From the IMG/VR virus record IMGVR_UViG_3300037521_000114, positions 1 through 64,000 of that record: a stretch of 64,000 bases of DNA; one strand, given 5' to 3'. Positions 4,869-10,921 of the stretch are shown here, one piece after another. The position numbers and the translations under genes were made by a program. This DNA is from a virus. Each line of letters starts with the position of its first letter. Within the stretch, counting starts at the first letter, position 1. Under the pieces are notes generated by a model, which was not told the origin of the DNA, ran no database searches, and worked only from the letters and a program-made list of their open reading frames with translations.

Positions 4869-5071
4869 TGGGAACGCCACATAAAGAAGAAAAGCGACAT
4901 ACTCCCAAGCGTAGAACTGCGGAGATGAAGGAGCTTCTCGATGCAAGTCTTGATGCCTTTGATGATCTGAAAGATCAAGCACATTTTGCCAACCTGATTC
5001 ATGGATTAAGCATGGAAATGTTGGAAACAGTTGCAATCAGAGAAATGAAGCCTGTTGATGAAGGCTCGTGA
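4868..5071 (+). CDS. Small hypothetical protein
   Basis: 67-aa ORF; TAATG overlap upstream and short overlap downstream. Confidence 0.55.
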   Translation: MGTPHKEEKRHTPKRRTAEMKELLDASLDAFDDLKDQAHFANLIHGLSMEMLETVAIREMKPVDEGS

Positions 5072-6230
5072 AATGAGAACAGCAGTAATCGGACTTGGAT
5101 TTGGAGATGAGGGTAAAGGTATGGTGGTATCACACCTTTGCTCTCATTTCAACAATCCTTTAGTCGTCAGATATTCAGGTGGACACCAAGCAGGTCATAC
5201 CGTTGTACACAAAGACATCAAACATACGTTTGCAAACTTTGGGTCAGGTACACTGCAAGGATGTCCTACTTACTGGTCGAAATATTGTACAATTGAACCT
5301 GTCGGTTTACTCAAGGAGCTTACAATCCTTGTGGATAAGATGGGTACAAGTTTTGATGATGTGAAAATCTACATCCACGAAGAATGTCCTGTAACTACTC
5401 CTTTCGATATATTTCACAATCAGAAATTGGAGAAAGAGAAGATGTACGGAACTTGTGGAGTTGGGTTTGGTGATACTCTCGAAAGAGAAGAAGATCACTT
5501 CCATCTACATTTTTCAGACCTGTTTAACCCTACTATTTTGAAGATCAAATTGGAACAGATTCGTAAGTACTACGGTTTGTTCCATGTCCTTAAAGACATT
5601 GATGTAGGACCTTTTATGGAAGCTGTGGATATACTCAATGCGAAAAACGTATTTCCTCACGATGTCATTATTCCTGTAAAGAGTAATGAAATACCAGCAC
5701 ATCCAAATACCATTTATGAAGGCTCACAAGGTCTTTTACTTGATCAGGATATTGGATTCTTTCCCAACGTAACACGCTCTAATGTAGGACGTAAGCGTTT
5801 GGATGAGTTCATTTATGCTTATGATGAGGTATGGTATGTGACGAGAGCGTACCAAACTCGTCATGGTTATGGTCCGATGACTAATGAGGAGCATCCATTG
5901 AAGCTGATCAATAATAAAGGTGAGTCGAATCTCGATAACTTTTATCAAGGACAGTTTCGGAAGAGTATGCTTGACGTTGATCTTTTAAATTATGCTTTAG
6001 AGCAGGATTCTAAGAGTGTCAGAAACATCCAGACTAAATATCTGGTGATCACCTGTCTTGACCAAATGGTTAATTGGCGGTTCACTCAGGGCGGTCAGGT
6101 ATTTGATTCTGGAAATGAAGAGAAGTTCATTGCGAATGTAGTGAGTGCTTTGAATTTTAAAGGAATGGTGTACCTTAGCCGATCCGAAAATAATGAACTT
6201 GAACAATGGAAAGGAGGAAAGGATGTCTAA
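5055..6230 (+). CDS. Adenylosuccinate synthetase-like ligase (divergent PurA family)
   Basis: GLGFGDEGKG, GGHQAGHTV, GTCGVG, YEGSQGLLLD, FPNVTRS and TRAYQTRHG motifs; start may be at 5073. Confidence 0.85.
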   Translation: MMKAREMRTAVIGLGFGDEGKGMVVSHLCSHFNNPLVVRYSGGHQAGHTVVHKDIKHTFANFGSGTLQGCPTYWSKYCTIEPVGLLKELTILVDKMGTSFDDVKIYIHEECPVTTPFDIFHNQKLEKEKMYGTCGVGFGDTLEREEDHFHLHFSDLFNPTILKIKLEQIRKYYGLFHVLKDIDVGPFMEAVDILNAKNVFPHDVIIPVKSNEIPAHPNTIYEGSQGLLLDQDIGFFPNVTRSNVGRKRLDEFIYAYDEVWYVTRAYQTRHGYGPMTNEEHPLKLINNKGESNLDNFYQGQFRKSMLDVDLLNYALEQDSKSVRNIQTKYLVITCLDQMVNWRFTQGGQVFDSGNEEKFIANVVSALNFKGMVYLSRSENNELEQWKGGKDV

Positions 6231-6792: not shown

Positions 6793-6932
6793 AATGGCAA
6801 CCGAAATGTGGCAGTTGTGGTAGAATCATAGGAGCTTCTGAGTTTGACAGGGATGAAATAAAAGTTGATTTTATTCCTGATACAGAACGCACCGTTGAAT
6901 CTACCACGTATACACACAAACGTTGTCTTTAA
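6789..6932 (+). CDS. Small 47-aa putative zinc-finger protein, absent from the ORF track
   Basis: MKWQPKCGSCGRIIGASEFDRDEIKVDFIPDTERTVESTTYTHKRCL*; CxxC...HxxC; ATGA overlap with the HNH stop. Confidence 0.65.
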   Translation: MKWQPKCGSCGRIIGASEFDRDEIKVDFIPDTERTVESTTYTHKRCL

Positions 6933-6981
6933 TTCACGATTCTCTAATTATCTTAGTAGCAATCTTTTAAATCTTTTTCTC

Positions 6982-8634
6982 ATGGGAAAATTCAATGAGA
7001 AGAGTACGACCAAACACGTACCTTCTGAAACAAACGCAATGGGTTCCGCAGCGTATAAACTGGACCCTAAAGAAGAACTCGTATCTACTATACTGACTAC
7101 TTTTGTACAGAAGTCTTACTACGAAAAAGAGAAGGAAATCATGAAACGCTTCCGAAAGGCAGCAGAGAATTGTGATCCTTTGTTCGTAGCAAAGACAGCT
7201 CTGTATGCTCGTGGTCCTGCGAATATGAGAACGTCTTCACACGTCCTTGCAGCCGAACTTGCTCCACGAATTACTGGACTTGAATGGTCTTCAAGGTTTT
7301 ACAACAAGATCGTAAACCGGACTGATGATATGAGTGAGATTCTATCTTACTATGAAGGTATCATGAAGGGTAAGGGAGTTCCTAACGCTATGCGTAAGGG
7401 ATTCAAGAAGTATCTTGAGGGTATGGACCCTTATCTGATTGATAAGTACAAAATGCCCGGAAGAGAGATTTCTCTTATCGACCTTGTGAATCGTATGCAC
7501 CCTGTTCCAACTCAGTCTAACGCAGAAGCATTTAAGCTGCTCATGACCAAAGGTGGAAAAGGAATAGATAAACTCTATGGCTCGAAGATTCTTGAGAAAG
7601 AAATGTCCAAAGCTGGTACAGCTCCTAAAACAGCTCAAAAAACTGTTGCTGAAGCGAAAGAAGAAGCTATCAAGGACGTGCTGAGCAATGTTAAAGGTAT
7701 GCCTATTTTTAACCTGTTGAGGAACCTGAGGAATATCATCCTCTACTCTCCAACAAGTGTTAATGCTGCTTGTAATCAACTCGTTATTCCTGAGAAGATT
7801 TACAAGTCAAGGCTCCTACCTTTCCGGTTCCTGTCTGCTCATCTTGAAATTACCAAGATGAAATATGACCTTAAAGAAGGAACATCCGGTAAAATTGTCT
7901 TTGAAGATGAAATTGAAGGTCGTGTTGCAACTCGTGAAGAGTTCACCAAGCTCAAAGCTCAGGTTCTCGCTCATCTTGAAAAGGCTGTTGAGCTGTCTTG
8001 TCATAATATCCCTGAATTGGAAGGTCGTGTAGCAATACTGATTGACCACTCAGGGTCAATGAGAGGAGATGGTGGAGGTAGTTCACTTGTCTCAGCACTG
8101 TCACGTACTACCAGTTCTGATATTGCAAACATCTTCGCTGCTATGCTTCTGAGTAAGCAACCAAGCGTATATGTTGGTCTCTTCGGAGATACTCTACTTC
8201 AGTATAAAGTAGATCGTGAGAAGGGAATCCTTGCAATGTCAAGGGATATGCACCGTAAAGGTAGTAGCTGTGGAGGTGGAACTGAACAAGGGGTTTACGT
8301 GTTCTTTGAGGAATTGATTAAGAGCCGTACTCCTGTGGACTTCATTATTGTGTTCTCTGACATGGTTATCGGTGAGAGAAACTCTTGGTATGGTGTATCA
8401 GGAGATCGTCGTCCCGGAAGGTTCCAAGACATCTTTAAGCAGTTCAGGAAACTGTATCCTACAACCAAAGTTGTGTCTGTTGATATTAGGCAGACATCTG
8501 GTACTACTGTGTTCAATAAGAACTTCGGTGTATCTCAGGTTGCTGGATGGTCAGAAAAGATTTTTGATGTAATCGCTGAAGGCGGTGCTGGTTATAAAGC
8601 CATCATCGAAGAAATCGAAAAGATCAAAATTTAA
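6982..8634 (+). CDS. TROVE-domain Ro60/Rsr-like RNA-binding protein with C-terminal vWA domain (550 aa)
   Basis: N-terminal N.MG..AY.L.P.EEL, DPLFVAKTALYAR..NMR, KYK...SLIDLVNRMHPVP, MPIFNLLRNLRNI, SRLLPFRFLSA, and vWA MIDAS ILIDHSGSM...VFSDM; ATG at 6982 preferred over TTG at 6865. Confidence 0.92.
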   Translation: MGKFNEKSTTKHVPSETNAMGSAAYKLDPKEELVSTILTTFVQKSYYEKEKEIMKRFRKAAENCDPLFVAKTALYARGPANMRTSSHVLAAELAPRITGLEWSSRFYNKIVNRTDDMSEILSYYEGIMKGKGVPNAMRKGFKKYLEGMDPYLIDKYKMPGREISLIDLVNRMHPVPTQSNAEAFKLLMTKGGKGIDKLYGSKILEKEMSKAGTAPKTAQKTVAEAKEEAIKDVLSNVKGMPIFNLLRNLRNIILYSPTSVNAACNQLVIPEKIYKSRLLPFRFLSAHLEITKMKYDLKEGTSGKIVFEDEIEGRVATREEFTKLKAQVLAHLEKAVELSCHNIPELEGRVAILIDHSGSMRGDGGGSSLVSALSRTTSSDIANIFAAMLLSKQPSVYVGLFGDTLLQYKVDREKGILAMSRDMHRKGSSCGGGTEQGVYVFFEELIKSRTPVDFIIVFSDMVIGERNSWYGVSGDRRPGRFQDIFKQFRKLYPTTKVVSVDIRQTSGTTVFNKNFGVSQVAGWSEKIFDVIAEGGAGYKAIIEEIEKIKI

Positions 8635-8658: not shown

Positions 8659-8666
8659 TATATTTG
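8659..8666 (+). promoter_or_regulatory. Bacteroidota-type -7 promoter element (TAnnTTTG) at the start of the RNA array
   Basis: TATATTTG at 8659-8666, abutting RNA unit 1; only a weak TTTT/TTTC match about 20 nt upstream. Confidence 0.55.
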
Positions 8667-8758
8667 CAAAGAGAGTGACAATTAGGAGGCTTACTTCGTT
8701 ACAAGTTCCATTATACTTTTACAGATAATCGTCTTCTTTGATTTTTCCTCTCTTTGCA
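8665..8758 (+). ncRNA. Y-RNA-like unit 1 (minimal cargo hairpin)
   Basis: TGCAAAGAGAG/CTCTCTTTGCA terminal stem, GGAGGC/GTCTTC inner stem, TTACTTCG at 8691-8698, ATTAT/ATAAT hairpin at 8710-8729, U-run after. Confidence 0.7.
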
Positions 8759-8764
8759 TTTTTA

Positions 8765-8773
8765 GTTCTTTGA
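8765..8773 (+). promoter_or_regulatory. boxA-like antitermination element
   Basis: GTTCTTTGA right after the U-run of unit 1; resembles rRNA-operon boxA. Confidence 0.4.
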
Positions 8774-8794
8774 TACAAAAACATTATAATACTT

Positions 8795-8890
8795 GGGGGA
8801 ATGTTGAAAAACACTCTCAGATACTTTCTCTGGAAGCAGTAGCCATTCAGAGAGTTACTTCGGACTTGGGTCTCAAAAACCCATTCCCCC
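8795..8890 (+). ncRNA. Y-RNA-like unit 2 (circularly permuted scaffold, Leu-CAA anticodon arm)
   Basis: GGGGGAA/TTCCCCC closing stem; CTCTC..TTTCT-CTG-gaag-CAG-TAGCCA..GAGAG-TTACTTCG; TGGGT-CTCAAAA-ACCCA anticodon-like hairpin at 8867-8883. Confidence 0.65.
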
Positions 8891-8894
8891 GCTA

Positions 8895-8973
8895 AACTAC
8901 AAGAATTGTGCTCAGTCCTCTGAGAGGCATTGAGGGGCTTAATGTTATCCCTTATTAACAGGTTCTTGTAGTT
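8895..8973 (+). ncRNA. Structured spacer RNA A (three-way junction)
   Basis: 11-bp AACTACAAGAA/TTCTTGTAGTT stem enclosing CTCAGT-CCTC/GAGG-ATTGAG and TGTTA/TAACA hairpins. Confidence 0.5.
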
Positions 8974-8975
8974 AC

Positions 8976-8984
8976 GTTCTTTAA
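8976..8984 (+). promoter_or_regulatory. Second boxA-like element
   Basis: GTTCTTTAA between spacer RNA A and unit 3. Confidence 0.4.
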
Positions 8985-8988
8985 AATT

Positions 8989-9165
8989 AAATTGTAGTAC
9001 CCAAGATGAGACTTACTTCGTAGCTCTTCGGAGCAATCGTAGGTTCGAATCCTGCTTTCCCCACGATACATTAACAATACAATGGGGAAATAGCCAAGTG
9101 GTCAAAGGCAACTAATTTTGGTTTAGTTAAACACTGATGCAGTCTTACTATTTCGTCTACAATTT
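8989..9165 (+). ncRNA. Y-RNA-like unit 3 (YrlA-like, circularly permuted tRNA-Gln(UUG) cargo)
   Basis: AAATTGTAG/CTACAATTT and TGAGACT/AGTCTTA stems; TTACTTCG at 9013-9020; order is T-arm (9039-9055), 3' acceptor strand TTTCCCC, linker, 5' acceptor strand GGGGAAA, D-arm, anticodon arm with TTG at 9118-9120. Confidence 0.8.
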
Positions 9166-9176
9166 TTTAACTTATT

Positions 9177-9245
9177 GGCAGCACCGTCTATTCTACGTCC
9201 GTTCCGGACAAAGGGTTGAATTTCCATGGCTGGATTGGTGCTGCC
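9177..9245 (+). ncRNA. Structured spacer RNA B
   Basis: Perfect 9-bp GGCAGCACC/GGTGCTGCC stem with internal GTCC/GGAC hairpin. Confidence 0.5.
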
Positions 9246-9252
9246 TCCCTTT

Positions 9253-9382
9253 TAAGGGTAGCAAGGAAGTCACTTACTTCGAAACGTAGCTCAGTTGGTA
9301 GAGCTTTTGATTGATAATCAGAATGTCGGTGGTTCAAATCCATCCATTTCGCACAATGACAGTGATCCCATTTCCTCCCTTA
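9253..9382 (+). ncRNA. Y-RNA-like unit 4 (embedded tRNA-Ile(GAU)-like cloverleaf)
   Basis: TAAGGG/CCCTTA and TCACT/AGTGA stems, GTAGCAAGGA loop, TTACTTCG at 9274-9281 overlapping the tRNA 5' end. Confidence 0.75.
9280..9352 (+). tRNA. tRNA-Ile(GAT)-like cloverleaf embedded in unit 4
   Basis: Acceptor CGAAACG/CATTTCG (one C-A mismatch), D-arm GCTC/GAGC, anticodon arm TTTGA-TTGATAA-TCAGA, T-arm GGTGG-TTCAAAT-CCATC; no CCA; C discriminator. Confidence 0.7.
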
Positions 9383-9396
9383 TCCTATTTAATGCT

Positions 9397-9528
9397 TAAA
9401 GAGTAGCAAGGATAACACTTACTTCGTAGCTCAGTTGGTTAGAGCACAAACCTGTAAAGTTTGATGTCTCAGGTTCAATTCCTGACGTACCCGAAAGGGT
9501 CCATAGTGTTACCAGTTTTCTCTCTTTA
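9397..9528 (+). ncRNA. Y-RNA-like unit 5 (acceptor-less tRNA body, GUA/Tyr anticodon)
   Basis: TAAAGAG/CTCTTTA and TAACACT/AGTGTTA stems; TTACTTCG at 9419-9426; D-arm, CAAAC-CTGTAAA-GTTTG, TCAGG-TTCAATT-CCTGA, only 2 bp of acceptor stem, then an ACCC-GAAA-GGGT hairpin. Confidence 0.75.
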
Positions 9529-9543
9529 TTTAATTTCAAAGCT

Positions 9544-10809: not shown

Positions 10810-10882
10810 TGACCTCTGGTGTAACTGGTAACACGTTCCCCTTTGGAGGGAAAGAGTACAGGTTCAAGCCCTGTGAGGTCAT
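10810..10882 (+). tRNA. tRNA-Gln(TTG)
   Basis: TGACCTC/GAGGTCA acceptor (U1-A72), GTGT/ACAC D-stem, TTCCC-CTTTGGA-GGGAA anticodon arm, ACAGG-TTCAAGC-CCTGT T-arm; CCA not encoded. Confidence 0.9.
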
Positions 10883-10921
10883 CTAACGTTTAATATTTTT
10901 TATTAACTAAACCACAAACAA

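What the first reader, a model, noticed from the sequence alone, without database searches (positions are those of the whole stretch)
8989..9165. Circularly permuted tRNA-Gln(UUG) that keeps its anticodon arm
Seen: the T-arm GTAGG-TTCGAAT-CCTGC and 3' acceptor strand TTTCCCC come first. A roughly 20-nt AT-rich linker follows, then GGGGAAA (perfect 7-bp acceptor), the D-arm GCC-AAGTGGTCAAA-GGC and the anticodon arm ACTAA-TTTTGGT-TTAGT. The tRNA is therefore opened at the variable loop, with a GCTC-TTCG-GAGC hairpin before the T-arm. Established: YrlA RNAs have this T-acceptor-D order, but there the Ro-binding stem stands in for the anticodon arm. Inference: this unit adds a full anticodon arm. 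Cutting the acceptor linker (RNase P plus 3' trimming) would give a two-piece tRNA-like molecule with real ends held by the scaffold, analogous to two-piece tmRNA.
Basis: partly seen in the sequence, partly recalled or inferred. Interest (0 to 1): 0.85.

Follow-up and report, generated by a model that had tools for sequence, protein, structure and literature searches.

The report
Phage Y RNA with full tRNA mimic
Just after the Ro60 (Rsr) gene of a crAss-like gut phage lies a small RNA gene of the known YrlA "tRNA-mimic Y RNA" kind that, unlike published YrlAs, also keeps a complete anticodon stem-loop; the same design recurs in at least 19 phage and metagenome sequences.

Summary
At 8989-9168 (+) the order is T arm, 3' acceptor strand, 21-nt linker, 5' acceptor strand, D arm, then a 5-bp/7-nt anticodon-like hairpin. 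A bulged stem formed by the two ends encloses all of this.

The element starts 355 nt after the stop of a TROVE/Ro60 (rsr) gene in a complete 101-kb crAss-like phage. It is a divergent YrlA-type Y RNA:
- It shares the invariant CUUACUUCG motif.
- Its covariance model aligns end to end with bacterial YrlAs that Rfam RF02553 recognises, below that family's cut-off.
- In those alignments the bacterial RNAs simply lack the 17-nt hairpin.

Nineteen homologues support every helix by covariation; all five hairpin pairs show compensatory changes. Their loops keep U33 (16/17) and a purine at 37 (17/17), but the "anticodon" differs in nearly every one. So it is not a tRNA-Gln gene.

The hairpin form occurs in 9/21 viral and 10/41 metagenome units, and in 0/40 bacterial units.

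The two-piece idea has a published precedent (M. smegmatis YrlA) but is untested here. Most relatives close the acceptor stem with only 3-9 nt.

This scan has reported other tRNA/Y-RNA chimeras beside phage Ro60 genes. The notes I saw did not include this form. Verdict: a new variant of a known kind.

The parts
6865..8634 (+). rsr: Ro60-like (TROVE plus vWA) protein gene, the presumed protein partner. Homologues align from about residue 40, so the true start may lie further downstream.
   Evidence: Pfam TROVE, E 6.5e-15. 47% identical to the 'Ro sixty-related protein' of phage csAssE-Sib and to cr111_1. 73-78% identical to L003 and L004.
8659..8666 (+). TATATTTG, which matches the Bacteroidota -7 promoter element. 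It is the only such site ahead of the RNA array, so unit 3 is probably cut out of a longer transcript (inference).
   Evidence: Sequence read directly. The site is conserved in L003 and L004. The sigma-70 scan found nothing above its shuffles.
8990..9007 (+). 5' strand of the Y stem: outer helix AATTGTAG, a bulged U, AC, a CC bulge, then AAGAT. This is the position of the Ro-binding motif.
   Evidence: It pairs with 9150-9164. Thirteen of its 15 pairs show compensatory changes in 19 sequences. It is nearly the same string as in a Prevotellaceae YrlA: GUGCCGUAGAUGAGA there, GUACCCAAGAUGAGA here.
9008..9013 (+). 5' strand of the inner helix, GAGACT.
   Evidence: It pairs with 9141-9146. L003 has GAGTCT/AGACTC. 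Four of 6 pairs are compensatory.
9012..9020 (+). CUUACUUCG, the invariant YrlA-type motif, which contains the conserved UA.
   Evidence: Invariant in all 19 homologues. TTACTTCG occurs 5 times within 8691-9426 and only twice elsewhere on either strand of the 101-kb genome. It is present in bacterial units that match RF02553.
9023..9034 (+). GCTC-TTCG-GAGC hairpin in the variable region, found only in this window's lineage.
   Evidence: Absent from L003, L004 and the 16 other homologues. The string CTTACTTCGTAGCTC is identical to the start of unit 5 at 9418-9432. This suggests a shrunken D arm acquired from a paralogue (inference).
9039..9055 (+). T arm (GTAGG / TTCGAAT / CCTGC). C9038 lies at the position of nucleotide 48.
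   Evidence: 100% of cells paired and 3 of 5 pairs compensatory. The Levitt pair covaries: G15:C48 here, A15:U48 in L003 and L004.
9056..9062 (+). 3' strand of the acceptor stem, TTTCCCC.
   Evidence: Seven of 7 pairs are compensatory and 98.5% of cells are paired.
9063..9083 (+). Linker that closes the acceptor stem: discriminator A, then CGAUAC...AAUACAAU, with U at -1. This is the candidate site for RNase P cleavage and 3' trimming.
   Evidence: Twenty of 21 bases are identical to L003, and L004 has a 19-nt version. Relatives have 3-9 nt here. The M. smegmatis precedent is in PMC4201824.
9084..9090 (+). 5' strand of the acceptor stem, GGGGAAA, followed by U8 and A9 at 9091-9092.
9093..9109 (+). 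D arm, with A14, G15, G18, G19 and A21.
   Evidence: Three of 3 pairs are compensatory and 100% of cells are paired.
9111..9127 (+). Anticodon-type stem-loop: 5 bp and a 7-nt loop UUUUGGU, joined to the D stem by a single A at 9110. This is the feature that sets it apart from published YrlAs.
   Evidence: Five of 5 pairs are compensatory and 98.9% of cells are paired. RNAalifold predicts it independently. Across the family the loops have U33 in 16/17, R37 in 17/17 and Y32 in 16/17. Bacterial YrlAs align with these 17 positions deleted.
9128..9140 (+). G-poor, A/C/U-rich connector of 12-14 nt from the hairpin to the Y stem.
   Evidence: Its length and composition are conserved but its sequence is not.
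9141..9168 (+). 3' strand of the Y stem: AGTCTT, an ACT bulge, ATTTC, GT and CTACAATT, followed by a U run.
   Evidence: It pairs with 8990-9013.

Best explanation
This is a phage-encoded Y RNA of the YrlA class.

Shown here:
- Its two ends form a bulged stem of the kind that docks on Ro60/Rsr, and the rsr gene lies directly upstream.
- The rest folds as a circularly permuted tRNA: T arm, loop-closed 7-bp acceptor stem and D arm, with all the elbow-forming nucleotides present.
- In published YrlAs the docking stem continues the anticodon stem and there is no anticodon loop. This RNA has a closed anticodon-type stem-loop, and the docking stem leaves through the variable region like a very long variable arm.
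- The fold and the family relationship are shown by sequence and covariation.

Inferred:
- The Rsr ring holds the stem. The whole L-shaped tRNA look-alike, elbow and anticodon end included, stays free as bait or adaptor for a tRNA-recognising protein.
- Candidate partners are a host anticodon nuclease, a modification enzyme, or another tRNA-handling factor that is brought to Rsr and a host exoribonuclease such as PNPase.
- In this lineage the long acceptor linker may be opened by RNase P.

As established for Y RNAs generally, Rsr binding and tethering to a second protein are the expected mode of action; neither was tested for this RNA.
For: Location and host:
- The rsr (TROVE) gene ends 355 nt upstream on the same strand.
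- The genome is a crAss-like phage, 101 kb, estimated 100% complete.

Fold:
- Three close homologues, 19 homologues and RNAalifold all support it.
- The Levitt pair covaries.

Link to YrlA:
- The invariant CUUACUUCG motif is shared with bacterial units. In 59 of 60 cases these lie on the rsr strand, at a median distance of about 600 nt.
- Those units match Rfam RF02553 at E 5.5e-10, 1.4e-7 and 5.7e-4.
- Model R1, built from this element, aligns end to end with the same bacterial intervals at E 1e-9 and 1e-8, with only the hairpin deleted.
- The 5' stem strand nearly equals that of a Prevotellaceae YrlA.

Rsr in carrier contigs:
- TROVE genes occur on the contigs of L142, L099, L122/L111, L087, L105, L108, L296, L309 and L404.

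Anticodon-loop signature:
- U33 in 16/17 and R37 in 17/17, with varied triplets.

Distribution of the hairpin form:
- 9/21 viral, 10/41 metagenome and 0/40 bacterial units; Fisher p = 1.7e-5 for viral against bacterial.

Literature:
- YrlA architecture, its recognition by tRNA enzymes, and Y RNAs as tethers (PMC4201824; 10.1101/312249).
- Phage Ro60 binds phage Y-like RNAs and host PNPase (PMC12135203).
Against: - There are no transcript, binding or processing data for this or any related phage RNA.
- RF02553 itself does not detect the unit, even at E up to 10.
- The published Ro-binding motif GNCGAA(N)G is degenerate here (ACCCAAG), so Rsr binding rests on architecture and adjacency.
- The partner of the tRNA-like head is unknown even for classical YrlAs.
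- The phage encodes no RtcB and no CCA-adding enzyme. Any RNA-repair link would depend on host enzymes.
- The alignment used for the counts was fitted to a model derived from this structure, which favours it. The pairs are, however, plain in the raw sequences.
Confidence: 0.8

Rival explanations
1. Two-piece, chargeable tRNA. RNase P cuts at 9083/9084. The 3' side is trimmed to A-C and completed to CCA. The resulting split molecule, held together by the acceptor and Y stems, is aminoacylated and acts in or on translation while tethered to Rsr.
For: - The unit has a 7-bp acceptor stem, U at -1, and discriminator A followed by C.
- The linker is 95% identical between the window and L003, although the stems differ.
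- M. smegmatis YrlA is cut by RNase P and gains CA in vivo (PMC4201824).
- Sixteen of about 55 YrlA-like units with linkers of 7 nt or more begin the linker with N-CCA and then a U-rich spacer, against about 1 expected. They include the anticodon-arm units L122, L309 and L345.
- The unit has a full anticodon loop with U33 and R37.
Against: - The window's linker has ACGA, not ACCA.
- Most anticodon-arm relatives, including the near relative L369, close the stem with 3-9 nt without CCA. A free end is therefore not what the family conserves.
- The triplet is not conserved between orthologues (TTG against ATG).
- The phage already carries an ordinary tRNA-Gln(UUG) at 10810-10883.
- Sister units 4 and 5 have no free acceptor end at all.
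- The phage has no CCA-adding enzyme of its own.
Confidence: 0.1
2. Ro-independent structured RNA. The terminal stem serves only as a processing or terminator stem for excising tRNA-like units from the array, or the RNA partners with a protein other than Rsr.
For: - The GNCGAA(N)G motif is degenerate here.
- The stem ends in a U run.
Against: - Adjacency to rsr holds in phages and bacteria that were found by a pattern that does not mention rsr.
- The stem keeps the same bulge layout across five paralogous units and 19 homologues, while the paired bases change.
- The stem strand matches bacterial YrlA.
Confidence: 0.06
3. A true circularly permuted tRNA gene, as in Cyanidioschyzon and Thermofilum. 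It would mature into a normal tRNA-Gln by end-joining across the terminal stem followed by opening of the acceptor loop.
For: The 3' half precedes the 5' half, and a terminal stem joins the ends. Wang et al. raise this resemblance for YrlA.
Against: - The stem's bulges are 1, 2 and 3 nt and do not form a bulge-helix-bulge motif.
- No splicing endonuclease is known in bacteria or phages (10.1101/312249).
- Joining the ends would leave tens of extra nucleotides in the variable region.
- The anticodon is not conserved.
- The Y stem and its motif are conserved as such.
Confidence: 0.02
4. A decaying relic of two tandem tRNA genes, with no function.
For: My parser also picks up adjacent tRNA genes of similar sequence as 'permuted' units. 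Sim and Wolin proposed that YrlA arose from dimeric tRNA transcripts (cited).
Against: Compensatory changes occur in every helix across 19 divergent sequences. The motif is invariant. The loop signature, spacer lengths and rsr linkage are all conserved.
Confidence: 0.02

Closest known systems
YrlA (Y RNA-like A; Rfam RF02553; Chen et al. 2014, PMC4201824; crystal structure in Wang et al. 2018, 10.1101/312249)
   Same: - Encoded next to rsr on the same strand.
- A terminal bulged stem for Ro60.
- The conserved UA-containing motif (CUUACUUCG in many lineages).
- The order T arm, closed acceptor stem, D arm, with the tRNA elbow nucleotides and the Levitt pair.
- Occurrence in phages.
- A 7-bp acceptor variant that RNase P opens in M. 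smegmatis.
   Different: - In YrlA the 5' and 3' strands themselves form the anticodon stem and run on into the Ro module, so there is no anticodon loop. Here the anticodon stem-loop is closed (5 bp, 7 nt, U33, R37) and the Ro stem leaves from the variable region through connectors of about 12 nt.
- The roughly 18-nt V region of classical units is usually reduced to 4-7 nt. This window is the exception and keeps 18 nt.
- RF02553 does not detect the unit.
- The form was seen only in viral and metagenome contigs.
D. radiodurans Yrn1
   Same: A Y RNA that Chen et al. modelled with a possible 'anticodon arm' having a 5-bp stem.
   Different: [quoted passage not shown] Its loop has 6 nt, its D arm is doubtful, and it has no acceptor stem. 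Here the acceptor stem and the anticodon arm are both present.
Two-piece (circularly permuted) tmRNA, Rfam RF04321
   Same: A permuted gene order in which the T arm and 3' acceptor strand come before the 5' acceptor strand. Processing in the intervening segment yields two base-paired pieces.
   Different: The unit has no tag reading frame and no pseudoknots. RF04321 scores only 14 bits, E 2. tmRNA has no D stem or anticodon arm and partners with SmpB, not Ro60.
Circularly permuted tRNA genes of red and green algae and Thermofilum (Soma et al. 2007; cited in 10.1101/312249)
   Same: The 3' half lies upstream of the 5' half, the acceptor stem is first made as a closed loop, and the ends are paired.
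   Different: Those genes mature by bulge-helix-bulge splicing and ligation into ordinary tRNAs with conserved anticodons. Here there is no such motif or enzyme, the anticodon is not conserved, and the terminal stem is a conserved Y-RNA module.

Membership tests
YrlA-type Y RNA (RF02553; Chen et al. 2014) | Encoded within about 4 kb of a TROVE/Ro60 gene, on the same strand | tested here: met
   The rsr ORF ends at 8634 and the unit starts at 8989, both on the + strand. The same holds for relatives.
YrlA-type Y RNA (RF02553; Chen et al. 2014) | 5' and 3' ends pair into a bulged stem that carries the GNCGAA(N)G Ro-binding motif on the 5' strand | tested here: inconclusive
   A bulged, covarying stem is present. 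The motif reads ACCCAAG here, GCCGUAG in Prevotellaceae and Hymenobacter, and GGCGAAG in Streptomyces. It is recognisably the same position, but the G and CG are not kept.
YrlA-type Y RNA (RF02553; Chen et al. 2014) | tRNA-like domain in the order T arm, loop-closed acceptor stem, D arm, with the elbow nucleotides and a covarying 15:48 pair | tested here: met
   T loop UUCGAAU; G18 and G19; U8 and A14; G15:C48 here against A15:U48 in L003 and L004.
YrlA-type Y RNA (RF02553; Chen et al. 2014) | Anticodon stem made by the 5' and 3' strands, with no anticodon loop | tested here: not met
   A closed 5-bp/7-nt hairpin follows the D arm after 1 nt, and the Y stem is attached through the variable region. 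This is the point of difference, so I file the unit as a variant.
YrlA-type Y RNA (RF02553; Chen et al. 2014) | Score against the Rfam covariance model at or above the gathering score of 69 bits | tested here: not met
   No RF02553 match to 8989-9168 at E up to 10. Bacterial relatives reach 33.8-54.6 bits, also below the cut-off. The link runs through model R1, which hits those same intervals.
YrlA-type Y RNA (RF02553; Chen et al. 2014) | Bound by the Ro60/Rsr protein | not testable with these tools
   This needs co-immunoprecipitation or a gel shift.
Canonical tRNA | Contiguous cloverleaf recognised by tRNA detectors | tested here: not met
   ARAGORN finds nothing at 8989-9168. Rfam tRNA scores 21.6 bits over 9084-9150 only, below its 29-bit cut-off.
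Circularly permuted tRNA gene (Soma et al. 2007) | Bulge-helix-bulge motif at the paired termini, and an anticodon conserved among orthologues | tested here: not met
   The bulges are 1, 2 and 3 nt and are not in a 3-4-3 arrangement. The triplets are TTG, TTG and ATG in the three closest orthologues and differ in most of the others.
Two-piece tmRNA (RF04321) | tRNA-like domain together with a tag reading frame and pseudoknots; a match to the family model | tested here: not met
   RF04321 scores 14.1 bits, E 2, over 9039-9092 only. ARAGORN reports no tmRNA.

The most novel reading that the evidence does not exclude
In this crAss-like lineage the long, conserved acceptor linker is removed by host RNase P and 3' trimming, and CCA is added. 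The product would be a two-piece tRNA with real ends and a real anticodon loop, tethered to the phage Ro60 ring through its opened variable arm. It would be aminoacylated and would engage the ribosome or a host tRNA-targeting defence enzyme as a captive substrate. That would be a Ro60-bound functional or suicide tRNA.
Probability: 0.1. Interest if true: 0.9.

Novelty: new variant of a known kind. Interest (0 to 1): 0.6.

Why it matters
YrlA RNAs are the best-studied bacterial Y RNAs, yet the partner of their tRNA-like head is still unknown.

- **A complete anticodon arm.** A subfamily seen here only in viral and metagenome contigs completes the mimic with an anticodon arm. It keeps the U33/R37 loop signature while varying the triplet. 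This suggests that in phages the anticodon end is also being presented to something. That points towards tRNA-directed host enzymes, such as anticodon nucleases or modification enzymes, as candidate partners, and it makes the question testable.
- **Origin of YrlA.** The layout is the 3' part of one tRNA, a spacer, then the 5' part of the next tRNA through its anticodon arm. This is what the proposed origin of YrlA from dimeric tRNA transcripts would predict for an intermediate.
- **Gut phages.** It adds an RNA gene family to crAss-like gut phages, where two of the three "tRNAs" called by standard tools are actually parts of Y-like RNAs.
- **Processing beyond M. smegmatis.** Many related units encode N-CCA after a 7-bp acceptor stem. 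The RNase P/CCA processing known from M. smegmatis may therefore be widespread.

Tried and rejected
- **Named relatives by blastn.** Searching the 909-nt spacer against named phages found only tRNA look-alikes. Three anticodon-arm units (L087, L142, L124) gave no match among named phages. No cultured phage carrying this form was identified.
- **Model R1 on rsr flanks of named phages.** I tested Vibrio phiKT1024, Nitratidesulfovibrio SRB7757, Bacillus phage G, Rhizobium RHph_TM21B, a 635-kb uncultured phage and cr111_1. Only classical or unclear units turned up (Bacillus G 39 bits, Rhizobium 33 bits); none has the hairpin.
- **Rfam.** There was no family match to the unit at the gathering score or at E up to 10.
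- **Reviews.** Two Sim and Wolin reviews are not held in the library, so I cannot exclude that they mention such variants. In the papers I could read, YrlA is described as lacking an anticodon loop.
- **RNA-repair genes.** RtcB and the CCA-adding enzyme are both absent from the phage.
- **Relaxed hairpin search in bacterial units.** A search allowing any 4-6-bp stem gave 10 hits against 8.7 expected, which is noise.
- **Readings rejected.** A real tRNA-Gln gene, a splicing-type permuted tRNA, two-piece tmRNA, and a dead tandem-tRNA relic. The reasons are given under the rival explanations.
- **Minus-strand reading.** L004 scores 33 bits on the minus strand against 189 bits on the plus strand.

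Full report
**What is there**

In order it contains:
- T arm, 9039-9055
- 3' acceptor strand, 9056-9062
- discriminator A and a 21-nt AT-rich linker, 9063-9083
- 5' acceptor strand, 9084-9090 (seven perfect pairs)
- U8 and A9
- D arm, 9093-9109
- a single A
- a 5-bp stem with the 7-nt loop UUUUGGU, 9111-9127

The two ends pair as AATTGTAG/CTACAATT. Next comes a helix with a bulged U, a CC bulge on the 5' strand and an ACU bulge on the 3' strand. Then GAGACT pairs with AGTCTT. The motif CUUACUUCG (9012-9020) follows the inner helix directly.

The minimum-energy fold recovers the frame, the T arm and the acceptor stem, with z = -2.5. ARAGORN and Rfam do not call the unit.

**Context**

The ORF ending at 8634 is a TROVE-domain (Ro60/Rsr) protein. 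It is 47% identical to the annotated Ro sixty-related protein of the crAss-like phages csAssE-Sib and cr111_1.

The window belongs to a 101,194-bp virus record estimated to be complete. The unit sits in a 909-nt non-coding stretch after rsr.

TTACTTCG occurs five times on the + strand in that stretch. It occurs only twice elsewhere on either strand of the genome.

Two of the phage's three ARAGORN tRNAs lie inside sister units of the array. One of them lacks an acceptor stem; Rfam aligns only model positions 6-65.

**Homologues and covariation**

IMG/VR relatives with 73-78% identical Rsr (L003, L004) carry the same unit. On these three sequences, 13 pairs change on both sides and 98% of cells pair.

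I built a covariance model from them (R1). I also scanned three collections for CTTACTTCG followed by a T loop. Together these gave 19 distinct full-length relatives with the hairpin.

On that alignment:
- 35 of 41 pairs show compensatory change.
- 95% of cells pair, against 38-50% for slid partners.
- The hairpin has 5 of 5 compensatory pairs, the acceptor stem 7 of 7, and the D stem 3 of 3.

RNAalifold predicts the same helices unaided. The Levitt pair covaries: G15:C48 here, A15:U48 in L003 and L004.

The GCTC-TTCG-GAGC hairpin is absent from all the others. Its left half, together with the motif, is identical to the start of unit 5. I take it as a lineage-specific insertion.

**Which family**

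Many of the pattern hits in bacterial genomes (Flavobacterium, Hymenobacter, Chryseobacterium, Prevotellaceae, Acidobacteriaceae, Streptomyces) lie next to a TROVE gene. In 38 of the 120 loci a TROVE gene was detected with the phage Rsr as query. In those loci the motif is on the same strand in 59 of 60 cases, at a median distance of about 600 nt.

These bacterial units match Rfam YrlA (RF02553) significantly, although below its 69-bit cut-off:
- Streptomyces, 54.6 bits
- Hymenobacter, 46.2 bits
- Prevotellaceae, 33.8 bits

R1 hits the same intervals end to end at E 1e-9 and 1e-8. The alignment shows the 17 hairpin positions simply missing and a longer variable region.

The Prevotellaceae 5' strand and the motif are nearly the same string as here. 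RF02553 does not see the window unit directly. So the unit is a divergent YrlA relative, linked through intermediates.

**What is different**

Published YrlAs have an anticodon stem made by the 5' and 3' strands, which leads into the Ro module, and they "lack the anticodon loop" (10.1101/312249).

Here the helix order around the junction is acceptor, D, hairpin, Y stem, T. This maps onto a class II tRNA as acceptor, D, anticodon arm, variable arm, T. The chain is therefore opened in the variable region, and the Ro stem plays the part of a giant variable arm.

The hairpin is joined to the D stem by exactly one nucleotide in every case.

The loops keep the anticodon-loop signature: Y32 in 16/17, U33 in 16/17 and R37 in 17/17. 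The middle triplet varies: TTG, ATG, TGA, TAA, TTA, TGT, GTA, TGG, GTC, GAG, CAA, CAG, AAT. "tRNA-Gln" is therefore not a fitting name.

**Distribution**

With a strict test (1-nt spacer, 5 bp, 7-nt loop), the hairpin occurs as follows:

| Source | Units with hairpin | Expected by shuffling |
|---|---|---|
| Viral contigs | 9 of 21 | 0.2 |
| Metagenome contigs | 10 of 41 | 0.5 |
| Bacterial genomes | 0 of 40 | 0.5 |

The viral-versus-bacterial difference gives Fisher p = 1.7e-5.

Hairpin units usually have a 4-7-nt variable segment after the motif, while classical units have about 18 nt. The window unit is unusual in having both the hairpin and an 18-nt segment.

TROVE genes are present on most carrier contigs that are long enough to judge.

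**Processing**

M. smegmatis YrlA has a 7-bp acceptor stem, is cut by RNase P, and receives CA to complete CCA in vivo (PMC4201824).

Points in favour here:
- a 7-bp stem
- U at -1
- A followed by C after the stem
- a linker that is 20/21 identical to L003, although the stems differ

Sixteen of about 55 related units with linkers of 7 nt or more begin the linker with N-CCA followed by a U-rich spacer. About one would be expected by chance. Processing is therefore probably common in the wider family.

Points against it as a conserved property of this form: most hairpin units, including the near relative L369, close the stem with 3-9 nt and no CCA. I therefore rate processing in this lineage as possible but unshown.

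**How it most likely works**

Three things are shown here: the fold, the family link and the rsr adjacency.

Two things are established for the family. Y RNAs bind Ro60 through the terminal stem and tether it to other proteins. YrlA heads are recognised by tRNA enzymes. A phage Ro60 binds phage Y-like RNAs and host PNPase.

My inference is that the phage Rsr holds the stem and the complete tRNA look-alike serves as bait or adaptor for a tRNA-recognising factor. The added anticodon end widens what can be recognised.

The array's other units also display anticodon arms on the same frame. That fits a role in the conflict over tRNAs between phage and host, but nothing here tests it. The phage has neither RtcB nor a CCA-adding enzyme.

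**Verdict**

The unit is a new variant of a known kind (YrlA-type Y RNA).

Earlier notes of this scan describe other tRNA/Y-RNA chimeras next to phage Ro60 genes. None of the notes I saw describes this anticodon-arm-retaining permuted form.

Noticed in passing
window 8667-8759, 8795-8900, 9250-9388, 9395-9533: Four more units share the same bulged frame and the TTACTTCG motif.
- Model R1 hits three of them, at 17.5, 25.8 and 25.8 bits.
- Unit 4 encloses a near-complete tRNA-Ile(GAU).
- Unit 5 encloses a tRNA body with a GUA anticodon and only 2 bp of acceptor stem.
- L003 and L004 keep the array, but their last unit carries UCU or GAU instead of GUA.
   Followed up: partly
window 9178-9250; L003 about 5162-5240; L004 about 1559-1640: A conserved, unassigned structured element: GCAGCACCG...GGUGCUGC enclosing an ACGUCCG-UUC-CGGAC hairpin and GGGUUGAAUUUCCAUGGC. 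It lies after the permuted unit in the window but before it in L003 and L004. It has no Rfam match.
   Followed up: no
L001 and L008-L082, about 2480-2920 (upstream of rsr): The csAssE-like crAss phages carry a classical YrlA-like unit without the hairpin (28-46 bits to R1) upstream of rsr. It is followed by tRNA-Tyr and tRNA-Lys. The tRNA-Lys region is itself hit weakly by R1 (about 17 bits), as if it were framed by a Y-like stem.
   Followed up: partly
L122, L134, L345, L309, L108/L310, L364, L368, L392, L412 (Bacillus phage G 2390-2554) and others: Many YrlA-like units encode N-CCA directly after a 7-bp acceptor stem, followed by a U-rich spacer before the 5' strand. This holds for 16 of about 55 units with linkers of 7 nt or more. 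It suggests that RNase P/CCA-type processing is widespread.
   Followed up: partly
L122 6356-6742 (-): A phage contig that carries two anticodon-arm Y RNAs (L111 and L122 come from the same contig) also encodes a tmRNA (RF00023, 71.5 bits), about 3 kb from one of them.
   Followed up: no
window 5055-6230; L410 1575-2711: An adenylosuccinate-synthetase-like gene lies 0.6-2.3 kb upstream of the TROVE gene both here and in Vibrio phage phiKT1024. This may be a conserved linkage.
   Followed up: no
L003 4800-4992: In L003 a small ORF of about 63 codons is inserted between units 1 and 2 of the RNA array. It is absent from the window and from L004.
   Followed up: no
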